Shown: positions 41,036-63,300 of the stretch, piece by piece
Position numbering within the stretch: the first letter of the stretch is position 1
How the letters are laid out: every line of letters begins with the position of its first letter
Source: Azolla caroliniana
Lineage: Eukaryota; Plantae; Polypodiophyta
Direction: 5' to 3'
NCBI GenBank assembly: GCA_043228905.1
Contig: JBHGNT010000020.1
Coordinates: 9,424,001-9,488,000, forward strand
Length of the DNA stretch: 64,000 nucleotides
Translations under genes and position numbers: made by a program
Notes under the pieces: model-generated
What the model was told of the DNA's origin: nothing
What the model saw: only the letters and a program-made list of their open reading frames with translations
Database searches by the model: none

Positions 41036-42219
41036 CTGTTGCACATACACACACCTACGTTCACCTTCCGCTGCATTGCAATCACCATAGACTCCATTTC
41101 CTAACATGGTATTAGAGCGTGTGATTGCTTGATCAAGCATTTTCGACTGTGTTGTGCTGCACGACGACGATTAATAGAACCGGCCCATCGACAAAGAGGA
41201 AATCACCATGAATACTCAAATGGGAAGCGCTCTTCCTACCGAGAAGCTCGACAGAACGAACTTTGCATCTTGGGAATACAAGATGCATCAATATCTTGTC
41301 GGACAAGGCTACTGGAGCTACATCAAAGGAGCTCACGAATCACACCCCAACCCAACACACACCGACTATCCCTCTTGGGAGCAGGCCGCAAGCCGCTGTT
41401 GTATTGTCTAGCATCATGCGTTCATGATCATATGGCTACATTTGAGAGGCAAAAAAGCCGAAGCAGGCGCGGGAAAATCTCAAAAAGATTTTTGCAGCCA
41501 ACACGGTGTCGTGTTACTACGCTTTCGCGTGTGAAACGAGATGGGACCGCGGGGGCCCTGAACCAAGGAACGTGAGAGAGAGAAAAAGAGAGACTGTTGA
41601 AACATAGAGAAAGAGAGAGAGACAAACAGAAGATTTGATTATAATGCCAAACGATTACAACCGGCAAGCCGGCGACAAACCCAGCTCGGGGTTCCACGCA
41701 CACACACAGATGTCACACGCCAAACACAGAAACGCGAAGGGAGAGCCTCTACTGGAAGCGCACGGGCTGTCCACGAAACAGAGGCAACGATCTCCAAAAC
41801 CCGTAGAGAACGACAATCGAAGGAGGAGAGAGAGAGCTCGGTACACAACCCGATAGCACTTCGTCCTCGCTAACGCCTGATAACCTATTCTTCCTTCTCT
41901 TATTTCTTATATAGGTCGTTGGGGAGAGACCCCTCTCCTTCAGTCACAATCACCTTCCTTTTTCTCTGTCCCTTTGGACAGAGATACGCATTGATTTCCT
42001 AATAAATATGTCACACCTAGTATATGCACATCAGCCGCCCTACACATAATTATGTACAAGTTATCAATTCACACGCCCACACATGGAAGGGCCGGTTTGT
42101 GCACGGTTTCTCTCGTTTCCTCCTAGGGACGGTTTTCTCCACGACATCCACCCCCACCAAACTGCACGTCCACCGGTATGCACAAGATACAACACTGGTC
42201 GGAGAAAACCGGCCCGCCT

Positions 42220-45200
42220 TCACCCGTCGTTGCTCGGATCCTCGTATGTTTCGAGCCGGTCGTCGTCGTCGGTGGCGCGGTCCGGGTCTGGCTCACCTTC
42301 TTGCCGTTTCTTGAATACCTTGACCCTTTTTCCTGCCAATGGCACCACCATCCGTGTCCAGTCGAGCTCCTCGAGATGATACGTGCCGTTGTCAATCGCC
42401 CTTGTTATCGTATAGGGCATGAACCACGTCCTCGCAAACTTACGCACCGTCTTGTGCTGATTGTTGAGGCTACTGTCGTACACCAACACCCAATCACCTT
42501 CCTCAATCCTCCTCGGCCTCAGTCGGTGAACACGGTCGAACCGACCTTTGTTCTTTTCTCGTGCTGCGCGTAGCCTTTCCTTCACCCGCTCCACGTCTTC
42601 CGGTCTTTGTTCGAGTTGCCGGATCCTTGCTGCCAGTAACTCTTCCCGGCTCATCTCGTCCTTCCAGTCCAGCGAGGCCCACGAAGCGATCGTCTTCTCT
42701 GTCGGCATGATTGGCTTCTACCCGTACATCAGCTCCGCTGGCATGAACCCCGTCACCGAAATGTGCGTAGTCTGATCCACCCATAGTGCGTAAGGAAGGA
42801 GTCGCGGTCAACTCCCGACTTGTCCTTCACATGCACGTACTAATGCCTTCACAATAGGCCCGTGGTCGCGTTCCACTTTCCCGTTTGCCTCCGAATTGTA
42901 CGCCGTGGTGAGGGAGAGTTTGACCCCCAATTGGTCAAACAACTCCTCAACTTCCCGCGCGTCTAGCTCCCCCCGATCCGCTACGATCTTCCCAACGCAC
43001 CCGTACCGGCATATCACATCTTCTATTAGAAACCGGCACACGACCGCGGTCGTCTTGTTCTGTAGTGCGCAACCTTCCACTTGATTCGTCAGGTCCTCTC
43101 GGGCCAGCACCAGATACCGCATCTGTCCTACCCCCATTGGCATAGTCACTAAATCCACCATCCATTTGAAGTGGACGGTTGGTGGGTAGGTTGGATGAAG
43201 CTCGTCTCGATGTCGGACTGTAGAGTGCAGCTGGCAACTGTCACAAGTCATCACAAAATGATGCATGTCTCGGTACAGCCCCGATCACCAATACTTGCCC
43301 TTGAGCTTCTCGAACGTAGCCCACGTCCCGCGGTGCCCTGCCCAAGGACTGTCGTGACACGCCATAAGCAATGCTTTCTGCTCGTCTTCCCTCACCACTA
43401 CGCGGAGTGGGGTGCCACTACGCTTCTTTGGATGCCTCCATATGTGCCCTCCTCATAGGAAGAATCGGTACGCCTTCTTCTGCACCCAGTTGGCCTCTTC
43501 TCTAGTCCACGCCGTGTTCGGCGTCATTGTTCGTAGGAACCTTCCTATTTGGAGCCACTCCCTGTCGTATCCGCTCTTGTCGAACTTGTTAAGCGCCGGA
43601 GTGCTCCTCACCCTAGTTGCCACGTTAGCTGACCCGAAGAAGTCCTCATCGACTTCTTCGTCATCCGAAACCATGCCGTCCTCGTCGTTGAACCGCGCCC
43701 TTGAAAGCATATCGGCCATGGCATTATCCCTTCCGGAGATGTGCCGTATCTCCGGGTTCAGGGACTTGATGTACGCGATCCACCTGAGCATTGCCAGGTC
43801 CGGAGTCGCGCATCCGGAAACCATACCCAGAATCGGTAGGTAGTCCGTCTCAATGATCACTTCCGTCCCGATTAGATAGTCCTTGTCAGCCTTGATTGCC
43901 GAAACGATACCCCACAACTCGCGCTTAATTTGGGCGTATCCTTGTTGCCACTCGCTCAATACCTTTGCCCCGAACCGGATCGGGAACCGTACGCCGTCCT
44001 TGTCTTCCTGATTGATCACCCACCCAATCCCGGTTGGGCTCGTGTCCACCGTCACGTAAATGGGGACTTCCTTGCCGTAAACCGCTTTCCGGAGAGCCGG
44101 TGCCGTAGTGAGCGCCTCCTTCAGTCTCCGGACCGACTCCGTGTGCTCCGTCCTCCATTCGAACCGGCGCCCTTTCTTCAATAACCCGTAAAGTGGTTCC
44201 GCGACATGCGCGTAGTGCGGAATCCAGATGTGATAGAACGCACATGCCCCTAGGAACCTTCGGACCTCCGTAACCGACCCACAATCATCCTTCATCGCAG
44301 AGATGGCTTCTACCTTCGCCGGGGATGGCTTCCGGCCGTAAGACCCGCACGGGTGCCCGACTACTAGGATCTCTGGCTGTCTGAAGGTTGACTTTTCCCC
44401 GGAGAAGGTGAGTGCGCGCTCTCGAGTCTTTGTAGCACCTTCTCGCAGTCGCGGATATGGTCCGTCATGAACTTCTGGCAACTGTCCGGCTCGACTGACT
44501 CATCCTTGTCCTCCACCGGACATCCTTTGATTGGGATGTCGTCCAGAAACGACATGTTGATGTCTAGGATGCAGTCCCTCAACACCTTGTTCATCGCATT
44601 CACCATGTGCGCCACCGAGTTCGTCCCCCCTTGCGGTAGGGTACACATCCGAACTAGGCCGAGAGGAGTCCGCATCGTCGTGATATCCCTGCTCTCTACG
44701 ACTAGTTGGAACTGATCGTACCCCGAGTATAGATCCCCGACCGAGTAGATCGACCTCCCTACGAAGGCCTCCGCGAACTCATCGATGGTCGGTCCGATAC
44801 CTGCGTTTCGAATGGTCACCTTGTTGACTGGCTGCAGGTCCTCTATGAAGCGTAGTGTGCCGTTCTTCTTTGGCATGGTAAACCACCGATTCGAATATGG
44901 GGCACTCGATGGTTCGAGGATGCCCATCTCTACCTTCTGTTTTAGCAGCCCCATCAGATCTGGAATGTGAGCTCTAGGCACCGGAATCGGTTTGAGATTC
45001 CACGGTACATGCGGTACCGTGAAGATCACCATTGGTTCTACGATTGTCGGGTCTACGCACCCGATCTCCTCCGGCAAGAATGCGAAGGCTTTCCCATGCC
45101 TTCTGAGCATTCTTCGAAACCGGTCCTCCTACACCGGCAGTAGAAACCCACCCCCACCAACCTTGAGCTCCCGTAGCGTTATGTCGGTGAACCGGTGTCC

Positions 45201-47809
45201 TATGCCGGCCGGATTCCGTAAGCTAGGGTCTGACGCGACCCCTCTCATCCGTTCTTCGTTGCCCTTCGGCAAGGGTGCCGCGACGGGCCTCACCTTCTGG
45301 TCCACAATCTTGTACTTCGTATTTACGTAGGCTGTAAGACCTGGCCTAATATTTTCCCCGAAGTCCACGATGACTTCGTACATCTCCACCGAGCTAACCG
45401 GAATCATCCGGTCTTGGCTAAGGCCCTCATCGACTACACCGCATAGCTCTCCCAAGGTGTCGTCAAATGAGACTGCCTCCACGGTACCGCTAATTTCCTC
45501 ATCAGGGTGGAGAGCCCCACATGACCTGAGCCGCTCTTCCACCTTCTTCTTCTCCCTGTCGCCGATGCTGGTTAATGTACATCCTCCGTTGTCGGAGAGC
45601 CAAAATTTCCTACCTATGGTACAAGTGTGGGGTTCCTCCAGCGTGTCTGAACTATCGCGGCCCCACGCCTTGATAGCCCTATCTAAAATTCCCCTCGGCT
45701 GTCGCGCCGAGAGTTTTGCGATTACGCTCATGATTCGGTCTCACGGTCAGGAATTGGACGGAGTGTCGTCCGTCTTGAATTTTCACGTGCATGTATGCCA
45801 AGCCGTTGTCGAGCACCTTTGTCTCCATGCGTGCTGCCATGATGTACGATTCACCGAGTATCACTGGGTGTGAGGACGTCTCTTGCACAAAAAAGTGTTG
45901 GTCTATCTTGATGTCGCCGATCTTCACACGTACGTTTGGGCACACGCCCCGTGCAGCTCCTCCGTAGCGCGGGTCGTCGCGCGTATCTTCCAGCCGTGTT
46001 CGGTGTTGATCGGCCATTTCCCCTTTTTGTAAAAGTCCATGGACATCAGATTGATCTCGGATCCATGGTCTATTAGTGCCACTACTGGCTCTTGCACATC
46101 CCCGACCCGAACGGGGGTCTCGGTAGTGGCTCTGGCCCAGTGTAACTTAGAATAATGGCTTTCCGCCAACTCGTCCCCCAGGATCGCATCCTCTAAGTGC
46201 GTAGTCTGCACCTCTATGGGCTTCTCCGGTTCCGGTTCCGCGCTTCACCAAGTCCACAATGGAGTCATGGAACTCCTTCTTGGCGATTCCAAGCACCTCC
46301 CTCAACGACAAATCCACTTGCTGTCAAGGATCCGCTCTTCGAGGACCTTCCGTAGGTCCGTCGTTCTTTCTATCTCGGTGCTCAGCCGGTACCCGGTGGG
46401 CTTGGCCTTGTTCGGTATGCCGGAATTGCCGGCGTCACTCCTTTTTGGGCTGAACCGGGTGTCGTACCGTTGCAAGGGACCGGCCCCTCCAGCTTTTCCC
46501 ACACGCTTGTCTTGTACCAGAACCTCGTAGTTCTGGAATGCAGCTTCTACGAAGCCAAACTTTTCTTCGACCGGGTCGTCCCACCTAGTGACCTCTCGGA
46601 TCCGCTGCTCCGCGCGGTTTGCTTCTTCCTTCTTTAACCGGACTCCGGAGAGGCCTTGCAGCACCAGTGGCCAGAACCCGGAGTGGCTTGCCTTCTGTCC
46701 TTCGTTGCCCCCGACCCGGATTCCTACCGACGCCACATAATTCACGGCGTCAGCGTGACACGCGACGGCCTCTTCCGTCAACCTCTTCATTCCGCCACGC
46801 CCGATATTCAATTCCAGGGCTCTCTGAGTCTCGCTGGCGTGCACCCGCCCATTCCAGAGGTATACCGTGTTGGTTTTGAGCACATCTGCGAAATCCGCGC
46901 AGTCTCTCCGGGCATGGTCGACTGCGTTGCACCATATGCATCGCTGACCTGCCGGTGGTCTTGGGTTGCGAGGTTGGTCACTGCTATCCCGCCGTGCTTG
47001 CGCGATCTGGAGGTCGCGCACCATTTCCGTCAACTCCTCCAGCGCCGCTCCTCTGGAGGGACCTTTGACCACGCCGCTTGACGCCGACCCCGTCTCAAGC
47101 CAGTTTCGTGTTTCTTCCTTTCGTGCCGGCGAAGGCTCCTCGAACTGCCTTGCCGGGACGGGCCTCGCTGTCGACGACCCTTCATCACTCCACTCCCGCC
47201 GCTTGTCGAAATGGTTGCAGACTCCTTTGACCACGACCCAGTCAGGCGTGAGCCCTTCGTCGGTCTCCAACAAGAGACCTACCTTTTCCCTGTCCAATGC
47301 GTCAACCGCTTTGACGAACAACAGTACCCGGCTCGAATCGAGCACGATTCAGTCCAACGCTCACAATCGCGCAAACCGCGTTTCGAATTCCCGGAGGAGT
47401 GCCAATGTACTCCTCCCCTTCCCCATGTCATGAAGTTCCGCTTCGACAGTCGAAGTGAGTCGTCGAACCCATACCTTTCGAGGAGACGCTCCCCGAAAAC
47501 CTCCCACGTCTAGCATTCGGCCAACACCTCGAGCACCTTTGCATGGATGTTCGGCGTCACAACTCAAGGGAATTCGGACAACCTCCTGTCTTCAGGGATG
47601 TCTCTCATGATCATCTTGGCCCGATAGGCCTCCAAATAGCTCGTGGGGTTCTTACCACCAAATCGGCCTATGGTGCCGACAATCGATTCTATGGCTCTAT
47701 CGAGGCTACCTGTTCCCTCATGAGCGCTCACTAGTCGGTCAATGGCTACGGCCATAGCTTCAGCAAGCTTGGATACCCTCATCTTCAACTCCTTTGCTGC
47801 CTCCTTCAA
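42220..47809 (-). pseudogene. Gypsy gag-pol with frameshifts and stops
   Basis: Zinc knuckle CIWCNAVDHARRDC, protease LIDHGSEIN, RT (DLYSGYDQF, FLDD), RNase H (VTVDTSPTGIG, NAMADMLSR) and integrase (CDSCQ, WMVDL, VADRGE). Confidence 0.9.
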
Positions 47810-48859
47810 ATCGGGTTCACCAAATTATGTCGTGTTACTACGCTTTCGCGTGTGAAACGAGACAGGACTACGGGGGCCCTGAACCAAGGAACGTGAGAGA
47901 GAGAAAAAGAGCGACGACTGAAACACAGAGAAAGAGAGAGAGACAAACAGAAGATTCGATTATAATGCCAAACAATTACAATCGGCAAGCCGACGACAAA
48001 CCCAGCTCGGGGTTCTACACACACACAGATGTCACACGCCAAACACAGAAACGCAAAGGGACGATTGTCACACCATAACGGTGGCCACATGAGCCGTGGC
48101 GGTAATTATCCTACGGGCCGATACGGGAGGTCCATCCAATGCGAAGGCCATACATCTTATGGAAGCGGCACACGTGCCAACATAAGACAAGAAGTGTATC
48201 CCTATGGCGGCTGTGCAGGAGATCATGCAAGCCATGGCATAAACGACCTTCCGTCTTTCCCTCTCGGCCCTCCTGCTCCTCCTCTCCTCCCCACCCCACC
48301 CCTGCAGACAATTTCAAACATACCCTCTCACTTCCCATATGTGTGTTTAACCCTAATCACGCCCCTCCCCCCCCCTCCTTACCTCCTACAAATTTGATGC
48401 ATGCCCCCCCCTTTATTTTCTATAAACCCCCCTCATACCCCTCCCCCATTTTTTAACCATGCCCCTATGCATTTCCCCCCTAATAACCCCCACAACGTTT
48501 CCCTATTTCCAAACTGTACCCCTCCCCCTTTTCATGCATTTCCTACACATACCCCCCCCCCCCCCCTTCTTTACACATAACTCCCCTTCTACTTCTAGTA
48601 GATTTCAATATTCTACCGCACCCTCTAAATTTCCCCCACACTTATATGAAATCCCTCATAGAAAACAACCTATCCGTACTCACAATAATCGCCCCCTTCC
48701 CACGAAACTACAAACTTTCCCATGTTACAATAATGTTAGGCCAAAAAACGTGTAGCTAGGCGTGCCAAACGGGATAGTAAACAGTTTCGGCACGCCATAC
48801 ATCCCGCGAAACGTCTCTTTTACCTTCTCGATAGACCTACTTCTACTTTAGATACTTTC

Positions 48860-50705
48860 ATGTGGTTAGGACGTCATACATCTAATTTTCCCTTCTCCCC
48901 ATATGTGAAAAAACCCCGTAATAAATTTTGGACACCTCTCCTTAATAAACCTAGAATTAGTAGGATCCACAACCACTCTAATTATTCCCTCTCTAAACAT
49001 GAGACACAACTCCTTAGCCTAGGTTTGAAACACATCCTCCCATCTTCTCCACCACCATCCCCTACCCTACTTAAAGAATTTGATAGCCTAAGCAGGACCC
49101 TTCGACTTAAACATTTTTTTAAAGATGTGGATAATTTGCCCCAAAATCCCTTTAAGCTACCTAACGCTAGTTGGCAACCTCCTACTAAGTACACTCCCCT
49201 AGAAAACATTATATCTAAACACCAAACTATCTTCAGGGACACACTTCATACACTCAAATTAAAACCCACAAGGATTGCACCTCACTCATCACTAGCCTTA
49301 CAATCTCTTAAGAAAAACAACAAAATCATAATCCTACCTGCTGACAAGAATGTTGGAGTGTGTGTTCTTGATAAGGACACGTACTATAACAAAGCTATAG
49401 AACACCTTTCTGATACTAATACATATAAAAAAGTCTCCCACTATCCACTTGAGGAATTATCCTATAGATTGAAAAGCATTGTTAATTACCATCTTGGTAC
49501 CCTATCCAACATAGAAGCCAACTACATACTACATAAACCCTCAAAAGGGTACCAAGTATGCAATGTCTATTTCCTCCCAAAACTCCATAAAAACCCAATA
49601 GGTTTTAGACCTATTTGCTCATACAATAACTCCCTTTTTGAACACATCAAAATGGCTTCACCACCAACTCATGCCTATCCTTCTCCTTCAAAAGCAATAT
49701 TTGAAAGACTCACATTCCCTTGTCCAGGCTTTAGAACATCTCAACCCACTACCTAATAGCTTTATCTTCACCTTTGATGTTGAATCTTTATATCCCAGCA
49801 TACCCCCTAGGTTAGGACTCCAAGCTTTACGAAAAATGATTACCCCACATTTTTCATCTTCTAAAACTAACCTTATCTATACACTTAGCGCACTCACGTT
49901 AGAATATCACTTTCTATCCTTTGATGACATGATCTATCAACAAGTCAAGGGTACAACCATGGGTAGTAATTTTTCTGTAGTTTATGCATGCCTATTCTTA
50001 GCTCACTTAGAGAACTCCCAACCATCACACCCTAATCTTTTTTATTTCACTAAATATATAGATGATGCATTCGGGATATGGACATGTACTAAACCCGAAT
50101 TAGAAAATTACCTCCAGTTCTATAACACCTCCACTAATAATTGCATCGAAATTACCATCACCACTTCTCCCTTTAGATTACCGTTCTTAGATTTATGGAT
50201 TAACCTAAAGAATTCACATTTCTCCTTTAATTGCTACCAAAAGCCCCAAAATGCCTACTAGTATCTCTCATTCTTGTCAGTTCACCCCCTTCACTTAAAA
50301 CGTCATTTTATTATTAATGAACTAAAACGATACCTAATTAGAGAAAGTACACCCTTAGGTTTCCTTCGAATGAAAAAACTATTTTTTAGTAGATTAGTTA
50401 AGAGAGGATATCCCCTTTCTTTTATATTAGAGAATTATAAAAACGTCCCATTTAGCGCTTGGAAATCACTAGTATTTAGTAGAAAACCTAAAAGTACCCT
50501 TATACCTGTCATCTTCAAACTTAGGTATACGAAAGATACCCCTAGATTAGGAATTCACGACATGCTAGAAAACCTCCACGCAGATTTAGCCACACATCCC
50601 CAACTATCCGAACTACTGCGACCCTTCATATGTTGGACTAAGTCGAAGTCCATTCATTCCCTTCTCGTCAAAACTAAATATAAATCCATAAATACTCCCA
50701 CTTAA
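48860..50705 (+). pseudogene. PLE reverse transcriptase copy 1 (frameshift near 49645, TAG at 50259)
   Basis: Motifs LLSLGLKH, IILPADKN, YFLPKLHKNPIGFRPICS, FDVESLYPSIP, QVKGTTMGS, YIDD, LPFLDL, YQKP and RGYP. The ORF ends without a GIY-YIG domain. Confidence 0.88.
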
Positions 50706-50915
50706 TACTATATGCCTTTTATATCCCACCCCTATAATCCCCCGCTTCTTATATCCCACCCCCACACCCACCCCCACCTATCACTTATCATATACATACA
50801 TATAACCCCCCTCTAACCCATTTTCACTAACCAATCCTTTACCTATCACAATTCCCTGTTTCCCTCTCACCTATCATTAAACTCCTATTCTCTCTCTCTC
50901 TCTCTCTCTTCCCCC

Positions 50916-50923
50916 TATATAAA
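50916..50923 (+). promoter_or_regulatory. Putative TATA box of the PLE, repeated in each unit
   Basis: TATATAAA after a (CT)n tract, ~20 nt upstream of the hammerhead fold. Confidence 0.45.
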
Positions 50924-50943
50924 CCTACCCTCTTGTTGTAAAT

Positions 50944-50995
50944 GACCTTGGCACCGATGAGCTCTACCTAGAGCGAAACTAGTTTGCACAAGGTC
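50944..50995 (+). ncRNA. Minimal type I hammerhead ribozyme (copy 1)
   Basis: Stem I GACCTTG-GCA / TGC-A-CAAGGTC; core CCGATGA; stem II GCTCT-acct-AGAGC; GAAA; palindromic mini stem III ACTAGT; GUU cut after 50984. Confidence 0.8.
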
Positions 50996-51228
50996 TTTCT
51001 AATGAAAATTTCTTAAGCTTTTCTTTTTTCTCACTCACTCTTCTCTTCTTCTTTCATCTCATTCTCTCATTCTCTTTTACTCTTGTTCACCTCTAATCCT
51101 ACTCACCTTAGTTTCACTTGCATCATTGCTTTATTTCTTTTCTTACTCTTCCCATATCATCTCAATAGTTGTGGTAGTTCGCTCGCACTCCTGGTCATGA
51201 CGCTACGGTCATAGCAATAATTGTTATC

Positions 51229-52656
51229 TTGGTTCCTATGGAGGGATTATCATCGGAGTTTGGAACCCACAATAGTGATACTTTGACTCGCATCGAATCA
51301 CCATTTAGTGCCGAGTTCCCTCCACAACAGATGATGACTTTTGCAGCGATGGCATCAACTACACCGACACCAACAAAACCTAGAAGCGCCAACAAACGTC
51401 CTAATAAACGACAACGCGCCCCTACATTATCCCCAACTTTCATCAACTCTAATCCTAGTAATGAAAAGGTAAATTCCTCCGACTCATATATGTCCTCACA
51501 CCACTTTGACGACTATAAGCGTAAAGTGGTATCTGAATTTAAACATCTTTATAGGCGCACACAAGAAGCTAAGAATACGTATAAGCGTATCTCTGATCTA
51601 AACTCACATGACATCACCCCTCATAATCTTAGGGTTCACCCACCGAAATTAACAATAGGTCATGAGGAGATCAATTCGAGCTTGCGAACAGAATTTCTAG
51701 CCCTCACAACACAATATCGCAAGGATCTTACAACATGCTATATTCGACATATAGACTTATTCGTCCACGCATTAACCAAAGCCATAGATGATTTTCCTAA
51801 TCAAGTTCGTACCGACATAGTAAAAATAATGGAAACAATGCAAGAACCCCCATTCATACAAGAAGTAACATCACTAGTAGGTCCCGATTCATTCCAAGAT
51901 AGAATGGCACATTGGCAGCAAGAGTTTGCCACAGAAATCCTTAGATCTTGTGATGAAGTAGTAGTTACATATTCTATTACCGTGGCTATTAGAAAGAAGG
52001 CCACTATCGGTAGAGACAAAGCAGAGAGTAGCATGCACAACAATGTTAGAGAAATGGACATAGAGATGAGTGATAATGAAGATTATAATGTTAATAACAG
52101 TCCCTTTACAATTCCAAATTACATTGGGAGTGAAAAACCAAAGAAATCCTCTACAAATTATCCCATTCAAAAACCTAAGCCTAAAGCTAACGCTAACTCT
52201 AACACTAACCCCAACCCCAAACTAAAATCCTCTACAAAGAACCTAAAACCTAATCCCTTTCAAAAATCTAACCCTATTGCTAACCGTAACCGTAACCGTA
52301 ACCATAACCCTACTTTTCCAGCAAAAAGAAATCCTCGATCATTGAACCACCGGAACCTCCTCCCGCAATACATTTGCAACATAACAAATAATCAAGTAAA
52401 TAGAAATCCTCATCAAAACCATTATGGCCCACGAGTCTTACTTTATAACCCTAATCGCCCTTTCTTTAATCCTATCTACAACCCAACTAACCATCTAGGG
52501 CACACGGTTCCCTCATGCGCGGCGGAAGCGACATACCCGCCGAGGGCATCTGTCCAACATCCTCACATCGAACGAAATTCAAACCAATATATTTCAGCCT
52601 CGCACGAGCCACACTCGCGGCCTATACATCACCACCATACCTCGCCGGAATTTTGA
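51229..52656 (+). CDS. PLE ORF1, 475 aa, unknown function (first ATG at 51238)
   Basis: Long uninterrupted ORF upstream of the RT of the next unit. Basic NLS-like NKRPNKRQR, a probably helical core, and an N/P/K-rich C-terminus. Confidence 0.75.
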   Translation: MVPMEGLSSEFGTHNSDTLTRIESPFSAEFPPQQMMTFAAMASTTPTPTKPRSANKRPNKRQRAPTLSPTFINSNPSNEKVNSSDSYMSSHHFDDYKRKVVSEFKHLYRRTQEAKNTYKRISDLNSHDITPHNLRVHPPKLTIGHEEINSSLRTEFLALTTQYRKDLTTCYIRHIDLFVHALTKAIDDFPNQVRTDIVKIMETMQEPPFIQEVTSLVGPDSFQDRMAHWQQEFATEILRSCDEVVVTYSITVAIRKKATIGRDKAESSMHNNVREMDIEMSDNEDYNVNNSPFTIPNYIGSEKPKKSSTNYPIQKPKPKANANSNTNPNPKLKSSTKNLKPNPFQKSNPIANRNRNRNHNPTFPAKRNPRSLNHRNLLPQYICNITNNQVNRNPHQNHYGPRVLLYNPNRPFFNPIYNPTNHLGHTVPSCAAEATYPPRASVQHPHIERNSNQYISASHEPHSRPIHHHHTSPEF

Positions 52657-53520
52657 ATTCGAAGGATACAACAGAGAGCGAAGATCTTACTTCGATATCG
52701 GCTACACGTGCGGCGATGATGGACGATTGTCACACCATACCGGCGGCCACATGAGCCGTGGCGGTAATTATCCTACGGGCCGATACGGGAGGTTCATCCA
52801 ATGCGAAGGCCGTACATCTTATGGAAGCGGCACACGTGCCAACATAAGACAAGAAGTGTATCCCTATGGCGGCTGTGCAGGAGATCATGCAAGCCATGGC
52901 ACGAACGACCTTCCGTCTTTCCCTCTCGGCCCTCCTCCTCCTCCTCTCCTCCCCACCCCACCCCTAGACAATTTCAAACATACCCTCTCACTTCCCATAT
53001 GTGTTTAACCCTAATCACGCCGCACCCCCCCCTCCTTACTTCCTACAAATTTGATGCATGCCCCCCCTTTATTTTCTATAAACCACCCTCATACCCCTCC
53101 CCCATTTTTTAACCATGCCCCTATGCATTTCCCCCCTAATAACCCCCACAACGTTTCCCTATTTCCAAACTGTACCCCTCCCCCTTTTCATGCATTTCCT
53201 ACACATACCCCCCCCCCCCCCCCCCCCTTCTTTACACATAACTCCCCTTCTACTTCTAGTAGATTTCAATATTCTACCGCACCCTCTAAATTTCCCCCAC
53301 ACTTATATGAAATCCCTCATAGAAAACAACCTATCCGTACTCACAATAATCGCCCCCTTCCCACGAAACTACAAACTTTCCCATGTTACAATAATGTTAG
53401 GCCAAAAAACGTGTAGCTAGGCGTGCCAAACGGGATAGTAAACAGTTTCGGCACGCCATACATCCCGCGAAACGTCTCTTTTACCTTCTCGATAGACCTA
53501 CTTCTACTTTAGATACTTTC

Positions 53521-55366
53521 ATGTGGTTAGGACGTCATACATCTAATTTTCCCTTCTCCCCATATGTGAAAAAACCCCGTAATAAATTTTGGACACCTCT
53601 CCTTAATAAACCTAGAATTAGTAGGATCCACAACCACTCTAATTATTCCCTCTCTAAACATGAGACACAACTCCTTAGCCTAGGTTTGAAACACATCCTC
53701 CCATCTTCTCCACCACCATCCCCTACCCTACTTAAAGAATTTGATAGCCTAAGCAGGACCCTTCGACTTAAACATTTTTTTAAAGATGTGGATAATTTGC
53801 CCCAAAATCCCTTTAAGCTACCTAACGCTAGTTGGCAACCTCCTACTAAGTACACTCCCCTAGAAAACATTATATCTAAACACCAAACTATCTTCAGGGA
53901 CACACTTCATACACTCAAATTAAAACCCACAAGGATTGCACCTCACTCATCACTAGCCTTACAATCTCTTAAGAAAAACAACAAAATCATAATCCTACCT
54001 GCTGACAAGAATGTTGGAGTGTGTGTTCTTGATAAGGACACGTACTATAACAAAGCTATAGAACACCTTTCTGATACTAATACATATAAAAAAGTCTCCC
54101 ACTATCCACTTGAGGAATTATCCTATAGATTGAAAAGCATTGTTAATTACCATCTTGGTACCCTATCCAACATAGAAGCCAACTACATACTACATAAACC
54201 CTCAAAAGGGTACCAAGTATGCAATGTCTATTTCCTCCCAAAACTCCATAAAAACCCAATAGGTTTTAGACCTATTTGCTCATACAATAACTCCCTTTTT
54301 GAACACATCAAAATGGCTTCACCACCAACTCATGCCTATCCTTCTCCTTCAAAAGCAATATTTGAAAGACTCACATTCCCTTGTCCAGGCTTTAGAACAT
54401 CTCAACCCACTACCTAATAGCTTTATCTTCACCTTTGATGTTGAATCTTTATATCCCAGCATACCCCCTAGGTTAGGACTCCAAGCTTTACGAAAAATGA
54501 TTACCCCACATTTTTCATCTTCTAAAACTAACCTTATCTATACACTTAGCGCACTCACGTTAGAATATCACTTTCTATCCTTTGATGACATGATCTATCA
54601 ACAAGTCAAGGGTACAACCATGGGTAGTAATTTTTCTGTAGTTTATGCATGCCTATTCTTAGCTCACTTAGAGAACTCCCAACCATCACACCCTAATCTT
54701 TTTTATTTCACTAGATATATAGATGATGCATTCGGGATATGGACATGTACTAAACCCGAATTAGAAAATTACCTCCAGTTCTATAACACCTCCACTAATA
54801 ATTGCATCGAAATTACCATCACCACTTCTCCCTTTAGATTACCGTTCTTAGATTTATGGATTAACCTAAAGAATTCACATTTCTCCTTTAATTGCTACCA
54901 AAAGCCCCAAAATGCCTACTAGTATCTCTCATTCTCGTCAGTTCACCCCCTTCACTTAAAACGTCATTTTATTATTAATGAACTAAAACGATACCTAATT
55001 AGAGAAAGTACACCCTTAGGTTTCCTTCGAATGAAAAAACTATTTTTTAGTAGATTAGTTAAGAGAGGATATCCCCTTTCTTTTATATTAGAGAATTATA
55101 AAAACGTCCCATTTAGCGCTTGGAAATCACTAGTATTTAGTAGAAAACCTAAAAGTACCCTTATACCTGTCATCTTCAAACTTAGGTATACGAAAGATAC
55201 CCCTAGATTAGGAATTCACGACATGCTAGAAAACCTCCACGCAGATTTAGCCACACATCCCCAACTATCCGAACTACTGCGACCCTTCATATGTTGGACT
55301 AAGTCGAAGTCCATTCATTCCCTTCTCGTCAAAACTAAATATAAATCCATAAATACTCCCACTTAA
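53521..55366 (+). pseudogene. PLE reverse transcriptase copy 2
   Basis: Near-identical to copy 1, with the same frameshift and stop; RYIDD catalytic motif. Confidence 0.88.
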
Positions 55367-55604
55367 TACTATATGCCTTTTATATCCCACCCCTATAATC
55401 CCTCGCTTCTTATATCCCACCCCCACACCCACCCCCACCTATCACTTATCATATACATACATATAACCCCCCTCTAACCCATTTTCACTAACCAATCCTT
55501 TACCTATCACAATTCCCTGTTTCCCTCTCACCTATCATTAAACTCCTATTCTCTCTCTCTCTCTCTCTCTTCCCCCTATATAAACCTACCCTCTTGTTGT
55601 AAAT

Positions 55605-55656
55605 GACCTTGGCACCGATGAGCTCTACCTAGAGCGAAACTAGTTTGCACAAGGTC
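55605..55656 (+). ncRNA. Minimal type I hammerhead ribozyme (copy 2)
   Basis: Identical to 50944-50995. Confidence 0.8.
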
Positions 55657-55889
55657 TTTCTAATGAAAATTTCTTAAGCTTTTCTTTTTTCTCACTCACT
55701 CTTCTCTTCTTCTTTCATCTCATTCTCTCATTCTCTTTTACTCTTGTTCACCTCTAATCCTACTCACCTTAGTTTCACTTGCATCATTGCTTTATTTCTT
55801 TTCTTACTCTTCCCATATCATCTCAATAGTTGTGGTAGTTCGCTCGCACTCCTGGTCATGACGCTACGGTCATAGCAATAATTGTTATC

Positions 55890-57317
55890 TTGGTTCCTAT
55901 GGAGGGATTATCATCGGAGTTTGGAACCCACAATAGTGATACTTTGACTCGCATCGAATCACCATTTAGTGCCGAGTTCCCTCCACAACAGATGATGACT
56001 TTTGCAGCGATGGCATCAACTACACCGACACCAACAAAACCTAGAAGCGCCAACAAACGTCCTAATAAACGACAACGCGCCCCTACATTATCCCCAACTT
56101 TCATCAACTCTAATCCTAGTAATGAAAAGGTAAATTCCTCCGACTCATATATGTCCTCACACCACTTTGACGACTATAAGCGTAAAGTGGTATCTGAATT
56201 TAAACATCTTTATAGGCGCACACAAGAAGCTAAGAATACGTATAAGCGTATCTCTGATCTAAACTCACATGACATCACCCCTCATAATCTTAGGGTTCAC
56301 CCACCGAAATTAACAATAGGTCATGAGGAGATCAATTCGAGCTTGCGAACAGAATTTCTAGCCCTCACAACACAATATCGCAAGGATCTTACAACATGCT
56401 ATATTCGACATATAGACTTATTCGTCCACGCATTAACCAAAGCCATAGATGATTTTCCTAATCAAGTTCGTACCGACATAGTAAAAATAATGGAAACAAT
56501 GCAAGAACCCCCATTCATACAAGAAGTAACATCACTAGTAGGTCCCGATTCATTCCAAGATAGAATGGCACATTGGCAGCAAGAGTTTGCCACAGAAATC
56601 CTTAGATCTTGTGATGAAGTAGTAGTTACATATTCTATTACCGTGGCTATTAGAAAGAAGGCCACTATCGGTAGAGACAAAGCAGAGAGTAGCATGCACA
56701 ACAATGTTAGAGAAATGGACATAGAGATGAGTGATAATGAAGATTATAATGTTAATAACAGTCCCTTTACAATTCCAAATTACATTGGGAGTGAAAAACC
56801 AAAGAAATCCTCTACAAATTATCCCATTCAAAAACCTAAGCCTAAAGCTAACGCTAACTCTAACACTAACCCCAACCCCAAACTAAAATCCTCTACAAAG
56901 AACCTAAAACCTAATCCCTTTCAAAAATCTAACCCTATTGCTAACCGTAACCGTAACCGTAACCATAACCCTACTTTTCCAGCAAAAAGAAATCCTCGAT
57001 CATTGAACCACCGGAACCTCCTCCCGCAATACATTTGCAACATAACAAATAATCAAGTAAATAGAAATCCTCATCAAAACCATTATGGCCCACGAGTCTT
57101 ACTTTATAACCCTAATCGCCCTTTCTTTAATCCTATCTACAACCCAACTAACCATCTAGGGCACACGGTTCCCTCATGCGCGGCGGAAGCGACATACCCG
57201 CCGAGGGCATCTGTCCAACATCCTCACATCGAACGAAATTCAAACCAATATATTTCAGCCTCGCACGAGCCACACTCGCGGCCTATACATCACCACCATA
57301 CCTCGCCGGAATTTTGA
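55890..57317 (+). CDS. PLE ORF1 copy 2, 475 aa
   Basis: Translation identical to 51229-52656. Confidence 0.75.
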   Translation: MVPMEGLSSEFGTHNSDTLTRIESPFSAEFPPQQMMTFAAMASTTPTPTKPRSANKRPNKRQRAPTLSPTFINSNPSNEKVNSSDSYMSSHHFDDYKRKVVSEFKHLYRRTQEAKNTYKRISDLNSHDITPHNLRVHPPKLTIGHEEINSSLRTEFLALTTQYRKDLTTCYIRHIDLFVHALTKAIDDFPNQVRTDIVKIMETMQEPPFIQEVTSLVGPDSFQDRMAHWQQEFATEILRSCDEVVVTYSITVAIRKKATIGRDKAESSMHNNVREMDIEMSDNEDYNVNNSPFTIPNYIGSEKPKKSSTNYPIQKPKPKANANSNTNPNPKLKSSTKNLKPNPFQKSNPIANRNRNRNHNPTFPAKRNPRSLNHRNLLPQYICNITNNQVNRNPHQNHYGPRVLLYNPNRPFFNPIYNPTNHLGHTVPSCAAEATYPPRASVQHPHIERNSNQYISASHEPHSRPIHHHHTSPEF

Positions 57318-58180
57318 ATTCGAAGGATACAACAGAGAGCGAAGATCTTACTTCGATATCGGCTACACGTGCGGCGATGATGGACGATTGTCACACCATA
57401 CCGGCGGCCACATGAGCCGTGGCGGTAATTATCCTACGGGCCGATACGGGAGGTTCATCCAATGCGAAGGCCGTACATCTTATGGAAGCGGCACACGTGC
57501 CAACATAAGACAAGAAGTGTATCCCTATGGCGGCTGTGCAGGAGATCATGCAAGCCATGGCACGAACGACCTTCCGTCTTTCCCTCTCGGCCCTCCTCCT
57601 CCTCCTCTCCTCCCCACCCCACCCCTAGACAATTTCAAACATACCCTCTCACTTCCCATATGTGTTTAACCCTAATCACGCCGCACCCCCCCCTCCTTAC
57701 TTCCTACAAATTTGATGCATGCCCCCCCTTTATTTTCTATAAACCACCCTCATACCCCTCCCCCATTTTTTAACCATGCCCCTATGCATTTCCCCCCTAA
57801 TAACCCCCACAACGTTTCCCTATTTCCAAACTGTACCCCTCCCCCTTTTCATGCATTTCCTACACATACCCCCCCCCCCCCCCCCCCTTCTTTACACATA
57901 ACTCCCCTTCTACTTCTAGTAGATTTCAATATTCTACCGCACCCTCTAAATTTCCCCCACACTTATATGAAATCCCTCATAGAAAACAACCTATCCGTAC
58001 TCACAATAATCGCCCCCTTCCCACGAAACTACAAACTTTCCCATGTTACAATAATGTTAGGCCAAAAAACGTGTAGCTAGGCGTGCCAAACGGGATAGTA
58101 AACAGTTTCGGCACGCCATACATCCCGCGAAACGTCTCTTTTACCTTCTCGATAGACCTACTTCTACTTTAGATACTTTC

Positions 58181-60026
58181 ATGTGGTTAGGACGTCATAC
58201 ATCTAATTTTCCCTTCTCCCCATATGTGAAAAAACCCCGTAATAAATTTTGGACACCTCTCCTTAATAAACCTAGAATTAGTAGGATCCACAACCACTCT
58301 AATTATTCCCTCTCTAAACATGAGACACAACTCCTTAGCCTAGGTTTGAAACACATCCTCCCATCTTCTCCACCACCATCCCCTACCCTACTTAAAGAAT
58401 TTGATAGCCTAAGCAGGACCCTTCGACTTAAACATTTTTTTAAAGATGTGGATAATTTGCCCCAAAATCCCTTTAAGCTACCTAACGCTAGTTGGCAACC
58501 TCCTACTAAGTACACTCCCCTAGAAAACATTATATCTAAACACCAAACTATCTTCAGGGACACACTTCATACACTCAAATTAAAACCCACAAGGATTGCA
58601 CCTCACTCATCACTAGCCTTACAATCTCTTAAGAAAAACAACAAAATCATAATCCTACCTGCTGACAAGAATGTTGGAGTGTGTGTTCTTGATAAGGACA
58701 CGTACTATAACAAAGCTATAGAACACCTTTCTGATACTAATACATATAAAAAAGTCTCCCACTATCCACTTGAGGAATTATCCTATAGATTGAAAAGCAT
58801 TGTTAATTACCATCTTGGTACCCTATCCAACATAGAAGCCAACTACATACTACATAAACCCTCAAAAGGGTACCAAGTATGCAATGTCTATTTCCTCCCA
58901 AAACTCCATAAAAACCCAATAGGTTTTAGACCTATTTGCTCATACAATAACTCCCTTTTTGAACACATCAAAATGGCTTCACCACCAACTCATGCCTATC
59001 CTTCTCCTTCAAAAGCAATATTTGAAAGACTCACATTCCCTTGTCCAGGCTTTAGAACATCTCAACCCACTACCTAATAGCTTTATCTTCACCTTTGATG
59101 TTGAATCTTTATATCCCAGCATACCCCCTAGGTTAGGACTCCAAGCTTTACGAAAAATGATTACCCCACATTTTTCATCTTCTAAAACTAACCTTATCTA
59201 TACACTTAGCGCACTCACGTTAGAATATCACTTTCTATCCTTTGATGACATGATCTATCAACAAGTCAAGGGTACAACCATGGGTAGTAATTTTTCTGTA
59301 GTTTATGCATGCCTATTCTTAGCTCACTTAGAGAACTCCCAACCATCACACCCTAATCTTTTTTATTTCACTAGATATATAGATGATGCATTCGGGATAT
59401 GGACATGTACTAAACCCGAATTAGAAAATTACCTCCAGTTCTATAACACCTCCACTAATAATTGCATCGAAATTACCATCACCACTTCTCCCTTTAGATT
59501 ACCGTTCTTAGATTTATGGATTAACCTAAAGAATTCACATTTCTCCTTTAATTGCTACCAAAAGCCCCAAAATGCCTACTAGTATCTCTCATTCTTGTCA
59601 GTTCACCCCCTTCACTTAAAACGTCATTTTATTATTAATGAACTAAAACGATACCTAATTAGAGAAAGTACACCCTTAGGTTTCCTTCGAATGAAAAAAC
59701 TATTTTTTAGTAGATTAGTTAAGAGAGGATATCCCCTTTCTTTTATATTAGAGAATTATAAAAACGTCCCATTTAGCGCTTGGAAATCACTAGTATTTAG
59801 TAGAAAACCTAAAAGTACCCTTATACCTGTCATCTTCAAACTTAGGTATACGAAAGATACCCCTAGATTAGGAATTCACGACATGCTAGAAAACCTCCAC
59901 GCAGATTTAGCCACACATCCCCAACTATCCGAACTACCGCGACCCTTCATATGTTGGACTAAGTCGAAGTCCATTCATTCCCTTCTCGTCAAAACTAAAT
60001 ATAAATCCATAAATACTCCCACTTAA
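58181..60026 (+). pseudogene. PLE reverse transcriptase copy 3
   Basis: Near-identical to copies 1 and 2, with the same lesions. Confidence 0.88.
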
Positions 60027-60262
60027 TACTATATGCCTTTTATATCCCACCCCTATAATCCCCCTCCTCTTATATCCCACCCCCACACCCACCCGCACCT
60101 ATCACTTATCATATACATACATATAACCCCCCTCTAACCCACTTTCACTAACCAATCCTTTACCTATCACAATTCCCTGTTTCCCTCTCACCTATCATTA
60201 AACTCCTATTTTCTCTCTCTCTCTCTCTTCCCCCTATATAAACCTACCCTCTTGTTGTAAAT

Positions 60263-60314
60263 GACCTTGGCATCGATGAGCTCTACCTAGAGCGAAACTA
60301 GTTTGCACAAGGTC
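60263..60314 (+). ncRNA. Hammerhead ribozyme copy 3 (C3 changed to U, probably impaired)
   Basis: Same stems as copies 1 and 2, but the core reads TCGATGA instead of CCGATGA. Confidence 0.65.
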
Positions 60315-63300
60315 TTTCTAATGAAAATTTCTTAAGCTTTTCTTTTTTCTCACTCACTCTTCTCTTCTTCTTTCATCTCATTCTCTCATTATCTCATTCT
60401 CTTTTACTCTTGTTCATCTCTAATCCTACTCACCTTAGTTTCACTTGCATCATTGCTTTATTTCTTTTCTTACTCTTCCCATATCATCTCAATAGTTGTG
60501 GTAGTTCGCTCGCACTCCTGGTCATGACGCTACGGTCATAGCAATAAATGTCACACGCCAAACACAGAAACGCGAAGGGAGAGCCTCTACTGGAAGCGCA
60601 CGGGCTGTCCACGAACTAGAGGCGACGATTTCCAAAATCCGGAGAGAACGACAACCGAAGGAGGAGATAGAGAGAGCTCGGTACACGGCCCAACAACACT
60701 TCGTCCTGGCTAACGTCTTATAACCTATTCTTCGTTCTCTTCTTTCTTATATAGGTCGTTGGGGAGAGACCCCTCTCTTTCAGTCACAATCACCTTACTT
60801 TATTCTCTATCCCTTCGGACAGAGATACACATTGATTTCCTAATAAATATGTCACACTTAGTATATGCATATCAGCCGCCCTACACATAATTATGTACAA
60901 GTTATCAATTCACACGCCCACACATGGAAGGGCCGGTTCGTGCACGGTTTCTCTCGTTTCTTCCTAGGGACGGTTTTCTCCACGACAGCGGCCGCACGCA
61001 AGCTCTAGCTTCGTCAGGAGCTGAATAGCATCCAACAGAGGGACATGTCAATCTCAAGCTATACCTTGAAGATCAAGGAGCTATGTGACGTCCTTGGATC
61101 GATTAACATCGCCATTGATGATGACGAACTGGTGTAGATATGCCTTGGAGGCTTAGCACCGCGTTTCGGCTCGATTAGATCAACCATTCTTGCAATGGAG
61201 AACCCTCCCTCCTTCTTCCACCTTCAATCGATATTGCTGGTCGAAGAGAATCACGCTCGGTAGAGGAGCAATGCACCAGATGGTCATATGCTCTACTCCT
61301 AGTCGGATGATAGAAGGAATTTCGGCCGAGGTCACTGAGGTCGCTTCGGACAAGGTCATAATGATCGGCAAAATCAAGAGCATAACTCTCACCAATGGCA
61401 AGCGGACAAGAACGGGCCCAGAGAGCTTGGCGGAAGGGGGAGTCATAATGCCGGACCAAGCAATCGCCAAAACCCAATCGAGTGTGGGTACTGCGGAAAA
61501 CCCAACCATTACGAAGAAGAGTGCCGGAAGAAGAAACGTGAGGCGGGCCGACAACTCACGAATTACGCCACGAACTCCAACTATGGCGACCGTGGCGGAC
61601 TGCTCATAATGAAGCACGAAGCACACTCGATGTCTGCATTTGTGACAACCAATGCCTCCACTACTAATAGTGTATGGTTTGTCGACTCGGGAGCTTCCAA
61701 TCACATGACTTCCCATGAAGATTGGTTTCGGGAATTACGGAAGCCCGAACGTCCCGGATATGTCGAAACAGGCGATGATATGACTCATCCAATACAACAT
61801 ATTGGGAATGTCCCATTCAGAAACGACGACAAACAGACCTACCTCAAGAACGTATTCCATGTTCCTACCATCACGAAAAATCTGGTCTCGGTCGGCCAGA
61901 TTGTAGAACAAGGAATGCAGGTACCCTTCAACAACGATGGGTGCTTCATTGAAAAAGGTGATCAAATTGTAGCTCACGGCGGACGAAAAGGCCGTATGTT
62001 CATCCTCGAGTCGAGCAAAGTAAAGTTGGCTATGTACGCAAAGGGCCAGAAACTCGAAACCGACTTAAAATTGTGGCACAAGAGAATCGGCCACATCAAT
62101 CCCCAGAAGCTTCAGAACATGCAGACAAAAGGAGTCGTAATCGGACTCTCGAACTTTACGGCAAAGGAGATCACGGGCCTGTGCGAAGCATGCCAATTCG
62201 GAAAGCAACGCCGTCATCCATTCCCAAAAGAGCGGAATGTAAGCAAAGGGATCCTAGATCTCATACATTCAGTTGTGTGGGGACCAACCCAAACAACTAC
62301 TTTCGGCGGATGTCGTTACTATGTCACGTTCATCGATGACTTCTCCAGAAATACCTGGATTTATCCGATGAAGCAAAATAGTGAAGTGTTCGGCCACTTC
62401 CAGAAGTTCAAAGCCAAAGTGGAAAAAGCCACGGGATGGCATGTACGCTGCCTTCAATCAGATGGAGGCAAAGAATATTTTTCAGATGAGTTCTCGGCGT
62501 ATCTCTGCAAGGAAGGAATCTGACGAGAATTCTCGTGTCAACATACACCTTAGCAAAACGACGTAGCTGAGCGTAAAAACCGCCACATAGTAGAAGTCGC
62601 ACGAGCCATGATGAATGAGAAGAACCTACCGAAATCGTATTGGGCAGAAGCGGCAAACACGGCCGTATACCTCATGAATAGGTGCGCAACCTCAGGAGTA
62701 CATGACATAACTCCTCATGAAAAGTTCTTTGGAAAGAAGCCGAACTTATCGCATGTCCGCATTTTCAGTTCTATTGCCTACGTACATATTCCCAACGATA
62801 CGCGACAAAAGCTCGATCCGAAGTCGGAGAAATGTATCCTCGTAGGATACTCACTTGAACAGAAGGGGTACAAGTGCTACAACCCATCTAACCGAAAAGT
62901 TCGCATCAGTTGAGACGTAGTCTTCGACGAGTCCGCATCCTGGTACGCACCAGAGAATACTTCGACTCCACTCAACGTGGATGACACTGAAATAGAAATA
63001 GACGTTGAGGATTGGCTCACACAGATGTTAGAAGACAACCCAATTACGACACAGCTAAGTGGGCCATCTGAGCCGCCGAGCGATGAAAGCACATCTCGGC
63101 CGAGTCCGAAACTGGACAAAGGCAAGGCAAAAATGCATGAGTATGAAGATCATTTTGATCTTGACAGTGAGTTCGATTGCCTTGATATCCACACGGACGG
63201 CGTGAAGAAACCCCTAGAATCCGCAAATGACAAGCCACACCGATTCACGCGTGAGAAGAACCTCGTAAACCGCTACGGCTACGACGAGTACATGGCGTAT

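What the first reader, a model, noticed from the sequence alone, without database searches (positions are those of the whole stretch)
50944..50995. Non-canonical minimal hammerhead ribozyme in every unit, with a palindromic stem III
Seen: GACCTTGGCA-CCGATGA-GCTCTACCTAGAGC-GAAA-CTAGTT-TGCACAAGGTC folds as a type I hammerhead. It has a 10-bp stem I with one bulged A, a 5-bp stem II, and a 2-bp stem III inside the palindrome AAACTAGTTT. It deviates from consensus (CCGAUGA rather than CUGAUGA; GUU cleavage triplet), so strict motif searches would miss it. A TATA box ~20 nt upstream would start transcription at about the ribozyme. Established: PLEs carry minimal type I hammerheads with tiny palindromic stem III that can cleave as dimers. 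Inference: tandem copies could cut read-through RNA into unit-length 4.66-kb monomers. Copy 3 carries an additional C3-to-U change.
Basis: partly seen in the sequence, partly recalled or inferred. Interest (0 to 1): 0.82.

Follow-up and report, generated by a model that had tools for sequence, protein, structure and literature searches.

The report
Hammerhead ribozyme of plant Penelope retroelement
The RNA motif is a real hammerhead-ribozyme fold carried by a decayed, endonuclease-free Penelope-like retrotransposon of a plant; relatives keep the textbook catalytic core, so the 'non-canonical' letter is a private mutation of this locus that likely weakens cutting, and the system is a well-supported new member of a known kind.

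Summary
The motif is there as described, in three copies (50944, 55605, 60263), and is not chance. It sits in a 2.68-unit array of a two-ORF, GIY-YIG-free Penelope-like element (PLE) inserted into a gypsy LTR with a 32-33 bp target duplication. 75 related loci gave 45 hammerheads in 44 loci: all have the canonical CUGANGA core, all a UU at positions 16.1-17, and all a palindromic helix III in four covarying versions; no hits on the opposite strand or in shuffles. Family contigs in six sequencing runs read U at position 4. So CCGAUGA (U4C) is a private change of this decayed locus, not a new core; GUU is family-wide but fits the known NUH rule. The fold is canonical-size type I, not the 'minimal' type. 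A dimer-dependent cut of read-through RNA is the likely role in the family (inferred, not assayed). The element ends about 240 nt past the cut site, so the inserted cDNA came from uncut or circular RNA. A -1 frameshift signal, a fixed TATA spacing and a conserved 3'-end signal came up. Hammerhead-bearing endonuclease-free PLEs are published; the scan noted a fungal one before.

The parts
50944..50995 (+). Type I hammerhead, copy 1 (U4C at 50955; predicted cut after 50984)
55605..55656 (+). Hammerhead copy 2, identical to copy 1 (predicted cut after 55645)
60263..60314 (+). Hammerhead copy 3, U4C plus C3U (60273) with G8 unchanged (predicted cut after 60303)
50976..50985 (+). 10-nt palindrome A13-U1.1; inner 6 nt would form the intermolecular helix III of a dimer
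50916..50923 (+). TATA box, first base 38 nt before C3; same spacing (36-39 nt) in 35 of 45 family motifs, 51-53 nt in 7
51184..51220 (+). Conserved CGCACTCC motif plus short covarying hairpin just before the ORF1 start; element 3' ends cluster right after it (likely start of reverse transcription)
51238..53416 (+). ORF1 (about 750 aa in intact relatives, no Pfam family); broken here by a frameshift near 52651
53404..53460 (+). Slippery heptamer A AAA AAC, ORF1 stop 3 nt later and a conserved hairpin: predicted -1 frameshift into the RT frame (also at 48743 and 58064)
53401..55366 (+). PLE reverse transcriptase ORF ending after the thumb, no GIY-YIG; broken by a frameshift near 54300 and a stop at 54920 (same breaks in all three units)
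48062..60547 (+). Whole 5'-truncated head-to-tail array, 2.68 units of about 4.66 kb
48029..48060 (.). Left copy of the 32-33 bp target-site duplication (one mismatch)
60548..60579 (.). Right copy of the target-site duplication
47828..60987 (.). Interrupted LTR (47828-48061 and 60548-60987) of a host LTR retrotransposon; intact partner at 41507-42146, 93.6% identical

Best explanation
The motif is the type I hammerhead of an endonuclease-free, two-ORF Penelope-like retroelement of land plants; in intact family members it likely cuts read-through RNA after GUU only when two copies pair through the palindromic helix III, and the three copies here carry a private U4C change that likely weakens or stops cutting. 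Shown: fold, family conservation, covariation, element anatomy, insertion junctions. Inferred steps: (1) Pol II starts about 30 nt after the TATA box (spacing recalled), at the 5' edge of stem I, and reads through the next unit; (2) ORF1 is translated and a -1 slip at A AAA AAC gives ORF1-RT; (3) two hammerheads 4.66 kb apart pair through the palindrome and cut, releasing a unit-length RNA that a host ligase may close into a circle; (4) RT starts internally just after the CGCACTCC-hairpin signal, about 240 nt past the cut site, and copies back across an intact hammerhead junction, so the template is a circle or an uncut multimer; (5) cDNA is primed at a telomere end or, as here, at a staggered break inside a chromosome, leaving a 32-33 bp duplication.
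For: Core CU at 3-4 and G8 in 45 of 45 motifs from 44 loci with RT identity 40-100%. 99% of 300 cells paired, 35 double-sided changes, 0 of 500 shuffles as high, slid controls 25-40% paired. Inner tetramer palindromic in 45 of 45 in four versions (CTAG 27, CATG 8, TGCA 6, CCGG 4); two copies co-fold at -47.0 against -38.6 kcal/mol for two monomers. Position 50955 reads T in 500/540, 809/809, 487/487, 1496/1496 depth units of four DNA-type runs and 70/70, 13/13 in two further runs. RT relatives are PLE RTs, distant ones with GIY-YIG; GIY-YIG probes hit three distant loci (L069, L072, L074) but none of the close loci or the array. Close RTs group with Selaginella, Ginkgo and Cryptomeria proteins (SH-aLRT 99, quick tree). 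Slip site in register in 44 of the 47 loci that hold the ORF1-RT junction (of 67 examined). Published: dimer model and Selaginella PLE hammerheads (PMC4209133); U4C lowers activity in vitro (PMC3088659); internal RT initiation gives the PLE tail (PMC11167929).
Against: No cleavage was measured. U17 (a slower triplet, recalled) and a 10-nt palindrome that can lock A13, A14, U17 and U1.1 into an inactive duplex (the lowest-energy co-fold) argue for weak activity. In an animal PLE, hammerhead mutants inserted as well as wild type and no RNA-seq reads ended at the cut site. The only guessed-RNA contigs over the motif run across both the TATA box and the cut site. Covariation counts come from related sequences and a structure derived from them. 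Most loci come from assemblies with similar name prefixes and may repeat the same genomic copies, so 45 motifs are 28 distinct sequences.
Confidence: 0.72

Rival explanations
1. The hammerhead fold is conserved mainly as a structural or dimerisation element (RNA pairing, protein binding, 5'-end shaping), and cleavage is slow or dispensable for retrotransposition; this insertion was copied from uncut read-through RNA.
For: U17 and U1.1 are invariant in 45 of 45 and complete a 10-nt palindrome; hammerhead mutants still insert in vitro in PAc; U4C is present in all three units, including unit 3 whose neighbourhood keeps its own private changes, so it was probably in the template; guessed-RNA contigs cross the site.
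Against: Every catalytic position (C3, G5, A6, G8, A9, G12, A13, A14) is kept across 40-100% RT identity, which pairing alone would not need; note that G5, A6, A9 and GAAA were fixed by the descriptor, but the covariance model found only 6 more motifs with core changes, each a single change.
Confidence: 0.17
2. One reading: CCGAUGA is a functional non-canonical core and these three copies cut the local read-through RNA into 4.66-kb monomers.
For: U4C hammerheads keep enough activity in vivo for viroid infectivity; a minority of depth in run X1 (about 40 of 540) does not read T at 50955; the stems are intact.
Against: 0 of 51 family motifs have C4; the locus is decayed (ORF1 and RT frameshifts, RT stop); other decayed copies show other single core changes (G5U, G5A, G12A); copy 3 also breaks C3-G8.
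Confidence: 0.08
3. The family hammerhead works as a monomer, helped by loop I-loop II contacts or by the element's protein, and the palindrome is incidental.
For: Stem I has an internal loop or bulge after 3-4 pairs in most members, where tertiary contacts usually form; PAc hammerhead is protein-assisted.
Against: The loop positions of helix III covary as a palindrome (11 double changes at columns 44-45), which only pairing between two copies explains; a 2-nt loop is not feasible in a monomer helix.
Confidence: 0.03

Closest known systems
Type I hammerheads of Penelope-like elements (Cervera and de la Pena 2014, PMC4209133), including the canonical ones of Selaginella moellendorffii EN-minus PLEs and the palindromic-helix-III variants of Drosophila, Aedes and rotifer PLEs
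   Same: Type I topology, one per repeat unit, sense strand, downstream of RT, G10.1-C11.1, palindromic helix III, NUH triplet with U17 seen in many listed animal PLE motifs
   Different: No extra base between 9 and 10.1 and a 4-bp helix II, so not a min-HHR; U17 and U1.1 nearly invariant across the clade, giving a 10-nt palindrome. The Selaginella sequences are in a figure that I could not see.
Endonuclease-deficient PLEs, Coprina/Athena (Craig et al. 2021 PMC8557442 intro and Fig. 1 legend; Coprina-1_Alen PMC13159263; EN-minus PLEs of Selaginella, Pinus, Picea listed in PMC9033089)
   Same: No GIY-YIG, ORF1 plus RT ORF, frameshift between them, hammerhead near the 3' end, head-to-tail chains; three related loci abut CCCTAAA arrays (L034, L035, L063)
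   Different: This copy lies inside an LTR with a 32-33 bp target duplication and no telomeric repeats at its ends; most related 3' ends also join non-telomeric DNA. No reference Coprina RT was available for a direct clade test.
PLE-X / Chlamys-2_cBra of Chara and Selaginella (PMC8557442 section 9, supplementary files S1-S2)
   Same: Plant, hammerhead-bearing, PLE-X lacks EN, Chara families spread genome-wide
   Different: No CxC or CxCX1-8C motif and no insertion-in-fingers in this RT by inspection of alignment A1; the PLE-X hammerheads listed have long stem II loops and C17.
Rfam Hammerhead_HH9 (RF02275) and amphibian non-LTR retrozyme hammerheads (PMC7229834)
   Same: Canonical-size type I with weak palindromic helix III, efficient only as dimers in amphibians
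   Different: Score far below the HH9 gathering threshold; here inside an autonomous-type 4.66-kb element rather than a 170-400 nt non-coding repeat.

Membership tests
Type I hammerhead ribozyme | Three-way junction with open helix I, helix II with G10.1-C11.1, A15.1-U16.1 | tested here: met
Type I hammerhead ribozyme | Core CUGANGA ... GAAA in the family | tested here: met
   45 of 45 family motifs; six runs read T at 50955
Type I hammerhead ribozyme | Core CUGANGA in the three window copies | tested here: not met
   U4C in all three, plus C3U in copy 3: mutated members
Type I hammerhead ribozyme | NUH cleavage triplet | tested here: met
   GUU here; GUU or AUU in 45 of 45, GUC in one decayed motif seen in L063 and L064
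Type I hammerhead ribozyme | Self-cleavage | not testable with these tools
   no assay; only contigs, no raw RNA reads
Minimal hammerhead (min-HHR) of animal PLEs | Extra base between 9 and 10.1, long helix II, short helix I, absent or tiny helix III | tested here: not met
   extra base in 0 of 45; helix II 4 bp; helix I extended; definition
Penelope-like element | PLE-clade reverse transcriptase with DKN, motifs 1-7 and thumb | tested here: met
Penelope-like element | Tandem or partial-tandem layout, 5' truncation, 3' tail past the repeat | tested here: met
EN-minus PLE (Coprina/Athena) | No GIY-YIG endonuclease | tested here: met
   no hit in close loci or array, positive controls hit L069, L072, L074; Pfam
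EN-minus PLE (Coprina/Athena) | Attachment to telomeric repeats | tested here: inconclusive
   3 of 75 related loci abut CCCTAAA arrays; the window copy does not
EN-minus PLE (Coprina/Athena) | RT falls in the Coprina clade | tested here: inconclusive
   groups with a Selaginella RT, apart from GIY-YIG-bearing RTs, but no named Coprina reference was in the tree
Chlamys / PLE-X | CxC motif and insertion-in-fingers domain | tested here: not met
   absent by inspection of alignment A1; features

The most novel reading that the evidence does not exclude
A land-plant clade of endonuclease-free PLEs has left the telomere and inserts all over chromosome arms by target-primed reverse transcription at breaks it does not make, using a conserved RNA signal (CGCACTCC plus hairpin) to fix where RT starts and a hammerhead whose invariant U17/U1.1 turn helix III into a 10-nt palindromic latch: it pairs two units first and cuts only after partial release, metering how much RNA stays multimeric or becomes circular. 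The array here would be a natural mutant, copied from RNA left uncut by U4C.
Probability: 0.2. Interest if true: 0.6.

Novelty: new member of a known kind. Interest (0 to 1): 0.3.

Why it matters
It removes the claim of a new catalytic core, but gives a clean, covariation-rich set for two open questions: whether PLE hammerheads really act as dimers and matter for retrotransposition, and how endonuclease-free PLEs insert away from telomeres (left open for PLE-X in PMC8557442). The family supplies natural compensatory palindromes, near-intact elements, a fixed promoter spacing, a frameshift signal and a mapped 3'-end signal, all directly assayable.

Tried and rejected
Whole genome: none held, so no genome-wide copy count. 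Viral contigs: 51 pattern matches, none a relative. A GIY-YIG-like reading of the ORF at 52499-53008 was rejected: it is mostly the out-of-frame continuation of ORF1 and GIY-YIG probes miss it. A pseudoknot after the slip site (loop pairing with a stretch 3' of the hairpin) fits only the closest subfamily; the alignment supports a hairpin only, 6 core pairs with no double change and 2 of 11 pairs with double changes. No solved structure matched the RT profile. ORF1 has no Pfam match; Atlas hits were all under 0.9, leads only. Expression: no RNA holder listed; four guessed-RNA runs are contigs and cannot show starts, ends or levels. The careful tree did not finish; the quick tree is used (46 of 130 proteins, chosen by hand). 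19 of 67 loci with RT identity of 40% or more gave no hammerhead; most are short or break off before the expected place, not checked one by one. The first palindrome count used a lazy pattern that mis-parsed CTAG members and was replaced. Papers not held: Gladyshev and Arkhipova 2007, Lunse et al. 2017, Lin et al. 2016; these may already describe this clade's hammerhead, frameshift or interstitial copies. Searches for a prior description; none listed a paper on this family. No passage giving a GUU rate was found. Earlier scan notes by sequence and by place: none.

Full report
Observation. The 52-nt motif is at 50944-50995, with copies at 55605 and 60263. It folds with the stem I and stem II described (z -3.67, 0 of 200 shuffles). 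By standard hammerhead numbering (recalled; also used in PMC4209133) the core reads C3 C4 G5 A6 U7 G8 A9, so the departure is U4C at 50955; the triplet is G16.2 U16.1 U17 with the cut after 50984. Copy 3 adds C3U with G8 unchanged. Rfam gives only a sub-threshold HH9 match for copies 1 and 2.

The host element. The copies lie in a head-to-tail array of a 4.66-kb unit from 48062 to 60547, 2.68 units, 5'-truncated. The array splits an LTR whose intact partner is at 41507-42146 (93.6% identical) and is flanked by a 32-33 bp duplication with one mismatch. Each unit has an ORF1 and an RT ORF. RT relatives are about 620 aa, end after the thumb and include Selaginella, Ginkgo and Cryptomeria proteins. 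Distant relatives carry GIY-YIG, which places the RT among PLEs; GIY-YIG probes hit three distant loci and none of the close loci or the array. A quick tree of 46 hand-picked proteins groups the family with the land-plant RTs, Selaginella at the base (SH-aLRT 99). The window's copies are dead: a frameshift in ORF1, a frameshift and a stop in RT.

Family test. One scan of metagenome contigs gave 75 loci. A descriptor free at positions 3, 4, 7, 8 (purine), helix III and 16.1-17 found 50 plus-strand motifs, none on the minus strand and none in 10 shuffles of all 357 kb. In loci with RT identity of 40% or more there are 45 motifs in 44 of 67 loci (28 distinct sequences): C3-U4 45 of 45, G8 45 of 45, UU at 16.1-17 45 of 45, no extra base before G10.1, and a palindromic inner tetramer in 45 of 45 in four versions. 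On a 30-row alignment 99% of cells pair, 35 cells show double-sided change, and slid controls fall to 25-40%; relatedness inflates such counts, but changes at the two loop positions of helix III (11 double changes) make sense only as pairing between two copies. A covariance model added six motifs with single core changes, G5U, G5A or G12A, all with U4; one of them (seen in two loci) has GUC. Contigs of four DNA-type runs read T at 50955 in 500/540, 809/809, 487/487 and 1496/1496 depth units, and two guessed-RNA runs agree. So U4C is private to this locus or a small lineage. PMC3088659 (passages) notes that U4C lowers activity in vitro yet leaves a viroid infectious. GUU is family-wide, obeys NUH, and U17 is frequent in the published PLE list (PMC4209133 supplement parts 1-2). 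The motif is canonical-size type I, not the minimal type (PMC4209133 results and discussion).

Context signals. A TATA box begins 36-39 nt before C3 in 35 of 45 motifs and 51-53 nt before in 7 whose stem I folds longer; 3 have none by the pattern. With the usual spacing of about 30 nt (recalled), transcription would start at the 5' edge of stem I. At the ORF1-RT overlap A AAA AAC stands in the -1 register in 44 of 47 loci that hold the junction (67 examined, 20 truncated or open to the contig start), followed by a conserved hairpin; a frameshift with pseudoknot is already drawn for EN-minus PLEs (PMC8557442 Fig. 1 legend). Just before the ORF1 start sits CGCACTCC plus a 3-pair hairpin in which all 3 pairs show double changes. 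Eight of 17 apparent element ends, the window's included, fall 29-45 nt after the start of that motif, and L034 runs into CCCTAAA repeats at the same place. This matches the internal RT initiation that makes the PLE tail (PMC11167929 main text).

Mechanism. Intact members likely make a read-through RNA with two hammerheads that pair through the palindrome (6 bp in the active form; the 10-bp form is lower in energy but would hold catalytic bases) and cut, as proposed for PLEs and shown for amphibian retrozymes. One point follows from geometry: the element ends 244 nt (236 in unit-1 numbering) past the last cut site, so cDNA crossed an intact hammerhead junction straight after starting. The template was a ligated circle or an uncut multimer, not the cut linear monomer. 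PAc data show cleavage is dispensable for insertion in vitro, so this remains a real rival.

History of the array. Units differ by 11 substitutions in the first 500 bp and 9 in the last 620 bp, but by 1 (unit 1 against unit 3) over the 2 kb between, and the 1,496-bp ORF1 part is identical in units 2 and 3. That is what unequal crossing-over or conversion gives, or consensus polishing of an assembly; I cannot separate them. Either way the three hammerheads are not independent and U4C is one event, probably older than the split of the edge copies.

What is known. Hammerheads in plant EN-minus PLEs, palindromic helix III, dimer cleavage, ORF1 frameshift and telomere attachment are published. What I did not find in the library is a description of this family, its near-invariant U17 palindrome or its target duplications away from telomeres; three key papers were not held and one figure with Selaginella sequences could not be seen. 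Verdict: real feature, new member of a known kind; the headline novelty is a decay mutation. Interest 0.3.

Noticed in passing
window 53404-53460 (also 48743, 58064): Conserved -1 slippery site A AAA AAC with ORF1 stop 3 nt later and a hairpin; kept down to 40% RT identity (44 of 47 loci with the junction).
   Followed up: yes
window 51184-51220; L010, L015, L020, L022, L033, L047, L060, L034: CGCACTCC motif plus covarying hairpin about 55 nt before the ORF1 start; element 3' ends cluster just after it.
   Followed up: yes
window 48029-48060 and 60548-60579: 32-33 bp target-site duplication around an endonuclease-free element inserted into an LTR; source of the nick unknown.
   Followed up: partly
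L034:6238-6302, L035:1-105, L063:1956-1986: Related elements joined to CCCTAAA arrays at the 3' end (L034, L063) or capped by them at the 5' end (L035); the L028/L029/L031/L034 subfamily has telomere-like repeats in its 5' UTR.
   Followed up: partly
L003:4352-4397 and 6614-7013; L001, L002, L004, L026, L052: Chains of different subfamilies head to tail (67-88% between neighbours); in L003 one switch falls at the 3'-end motif. Could be insertion into own family or assembly chimeras.
   Followed up: partly
window 48059-48551 and 59938-60547: Differences between units are confined to the array edges; interior nearly identical (recombination or assembly polishing).
   Followed up: partly
window 52190-52320; ORF1 of many loci: ORF1 holds (CCCTAA)n-like runs coding Asn-Pro repeats, resembling reverse telomeric repeats.
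   Followed up: no
L069, L072, L074: Distant GIY-YIG-bearing PLEs with min-HHR-type motifs; L069 shows the U3-A8 core variant.
   Followed up: no
window 26337-26496: 55-nt inverted repeat arms, 91% complementary, 50 nt apart (MITE-like or hairpin).
   Followed up: no
window 38332-40216, 41204-47828, 60969-62566: Nested LTR retrotransposon remains: a gypsy-like internal region on the minus strand (RT/RNase H) and copia-like pol fragments.
   Followed up: no
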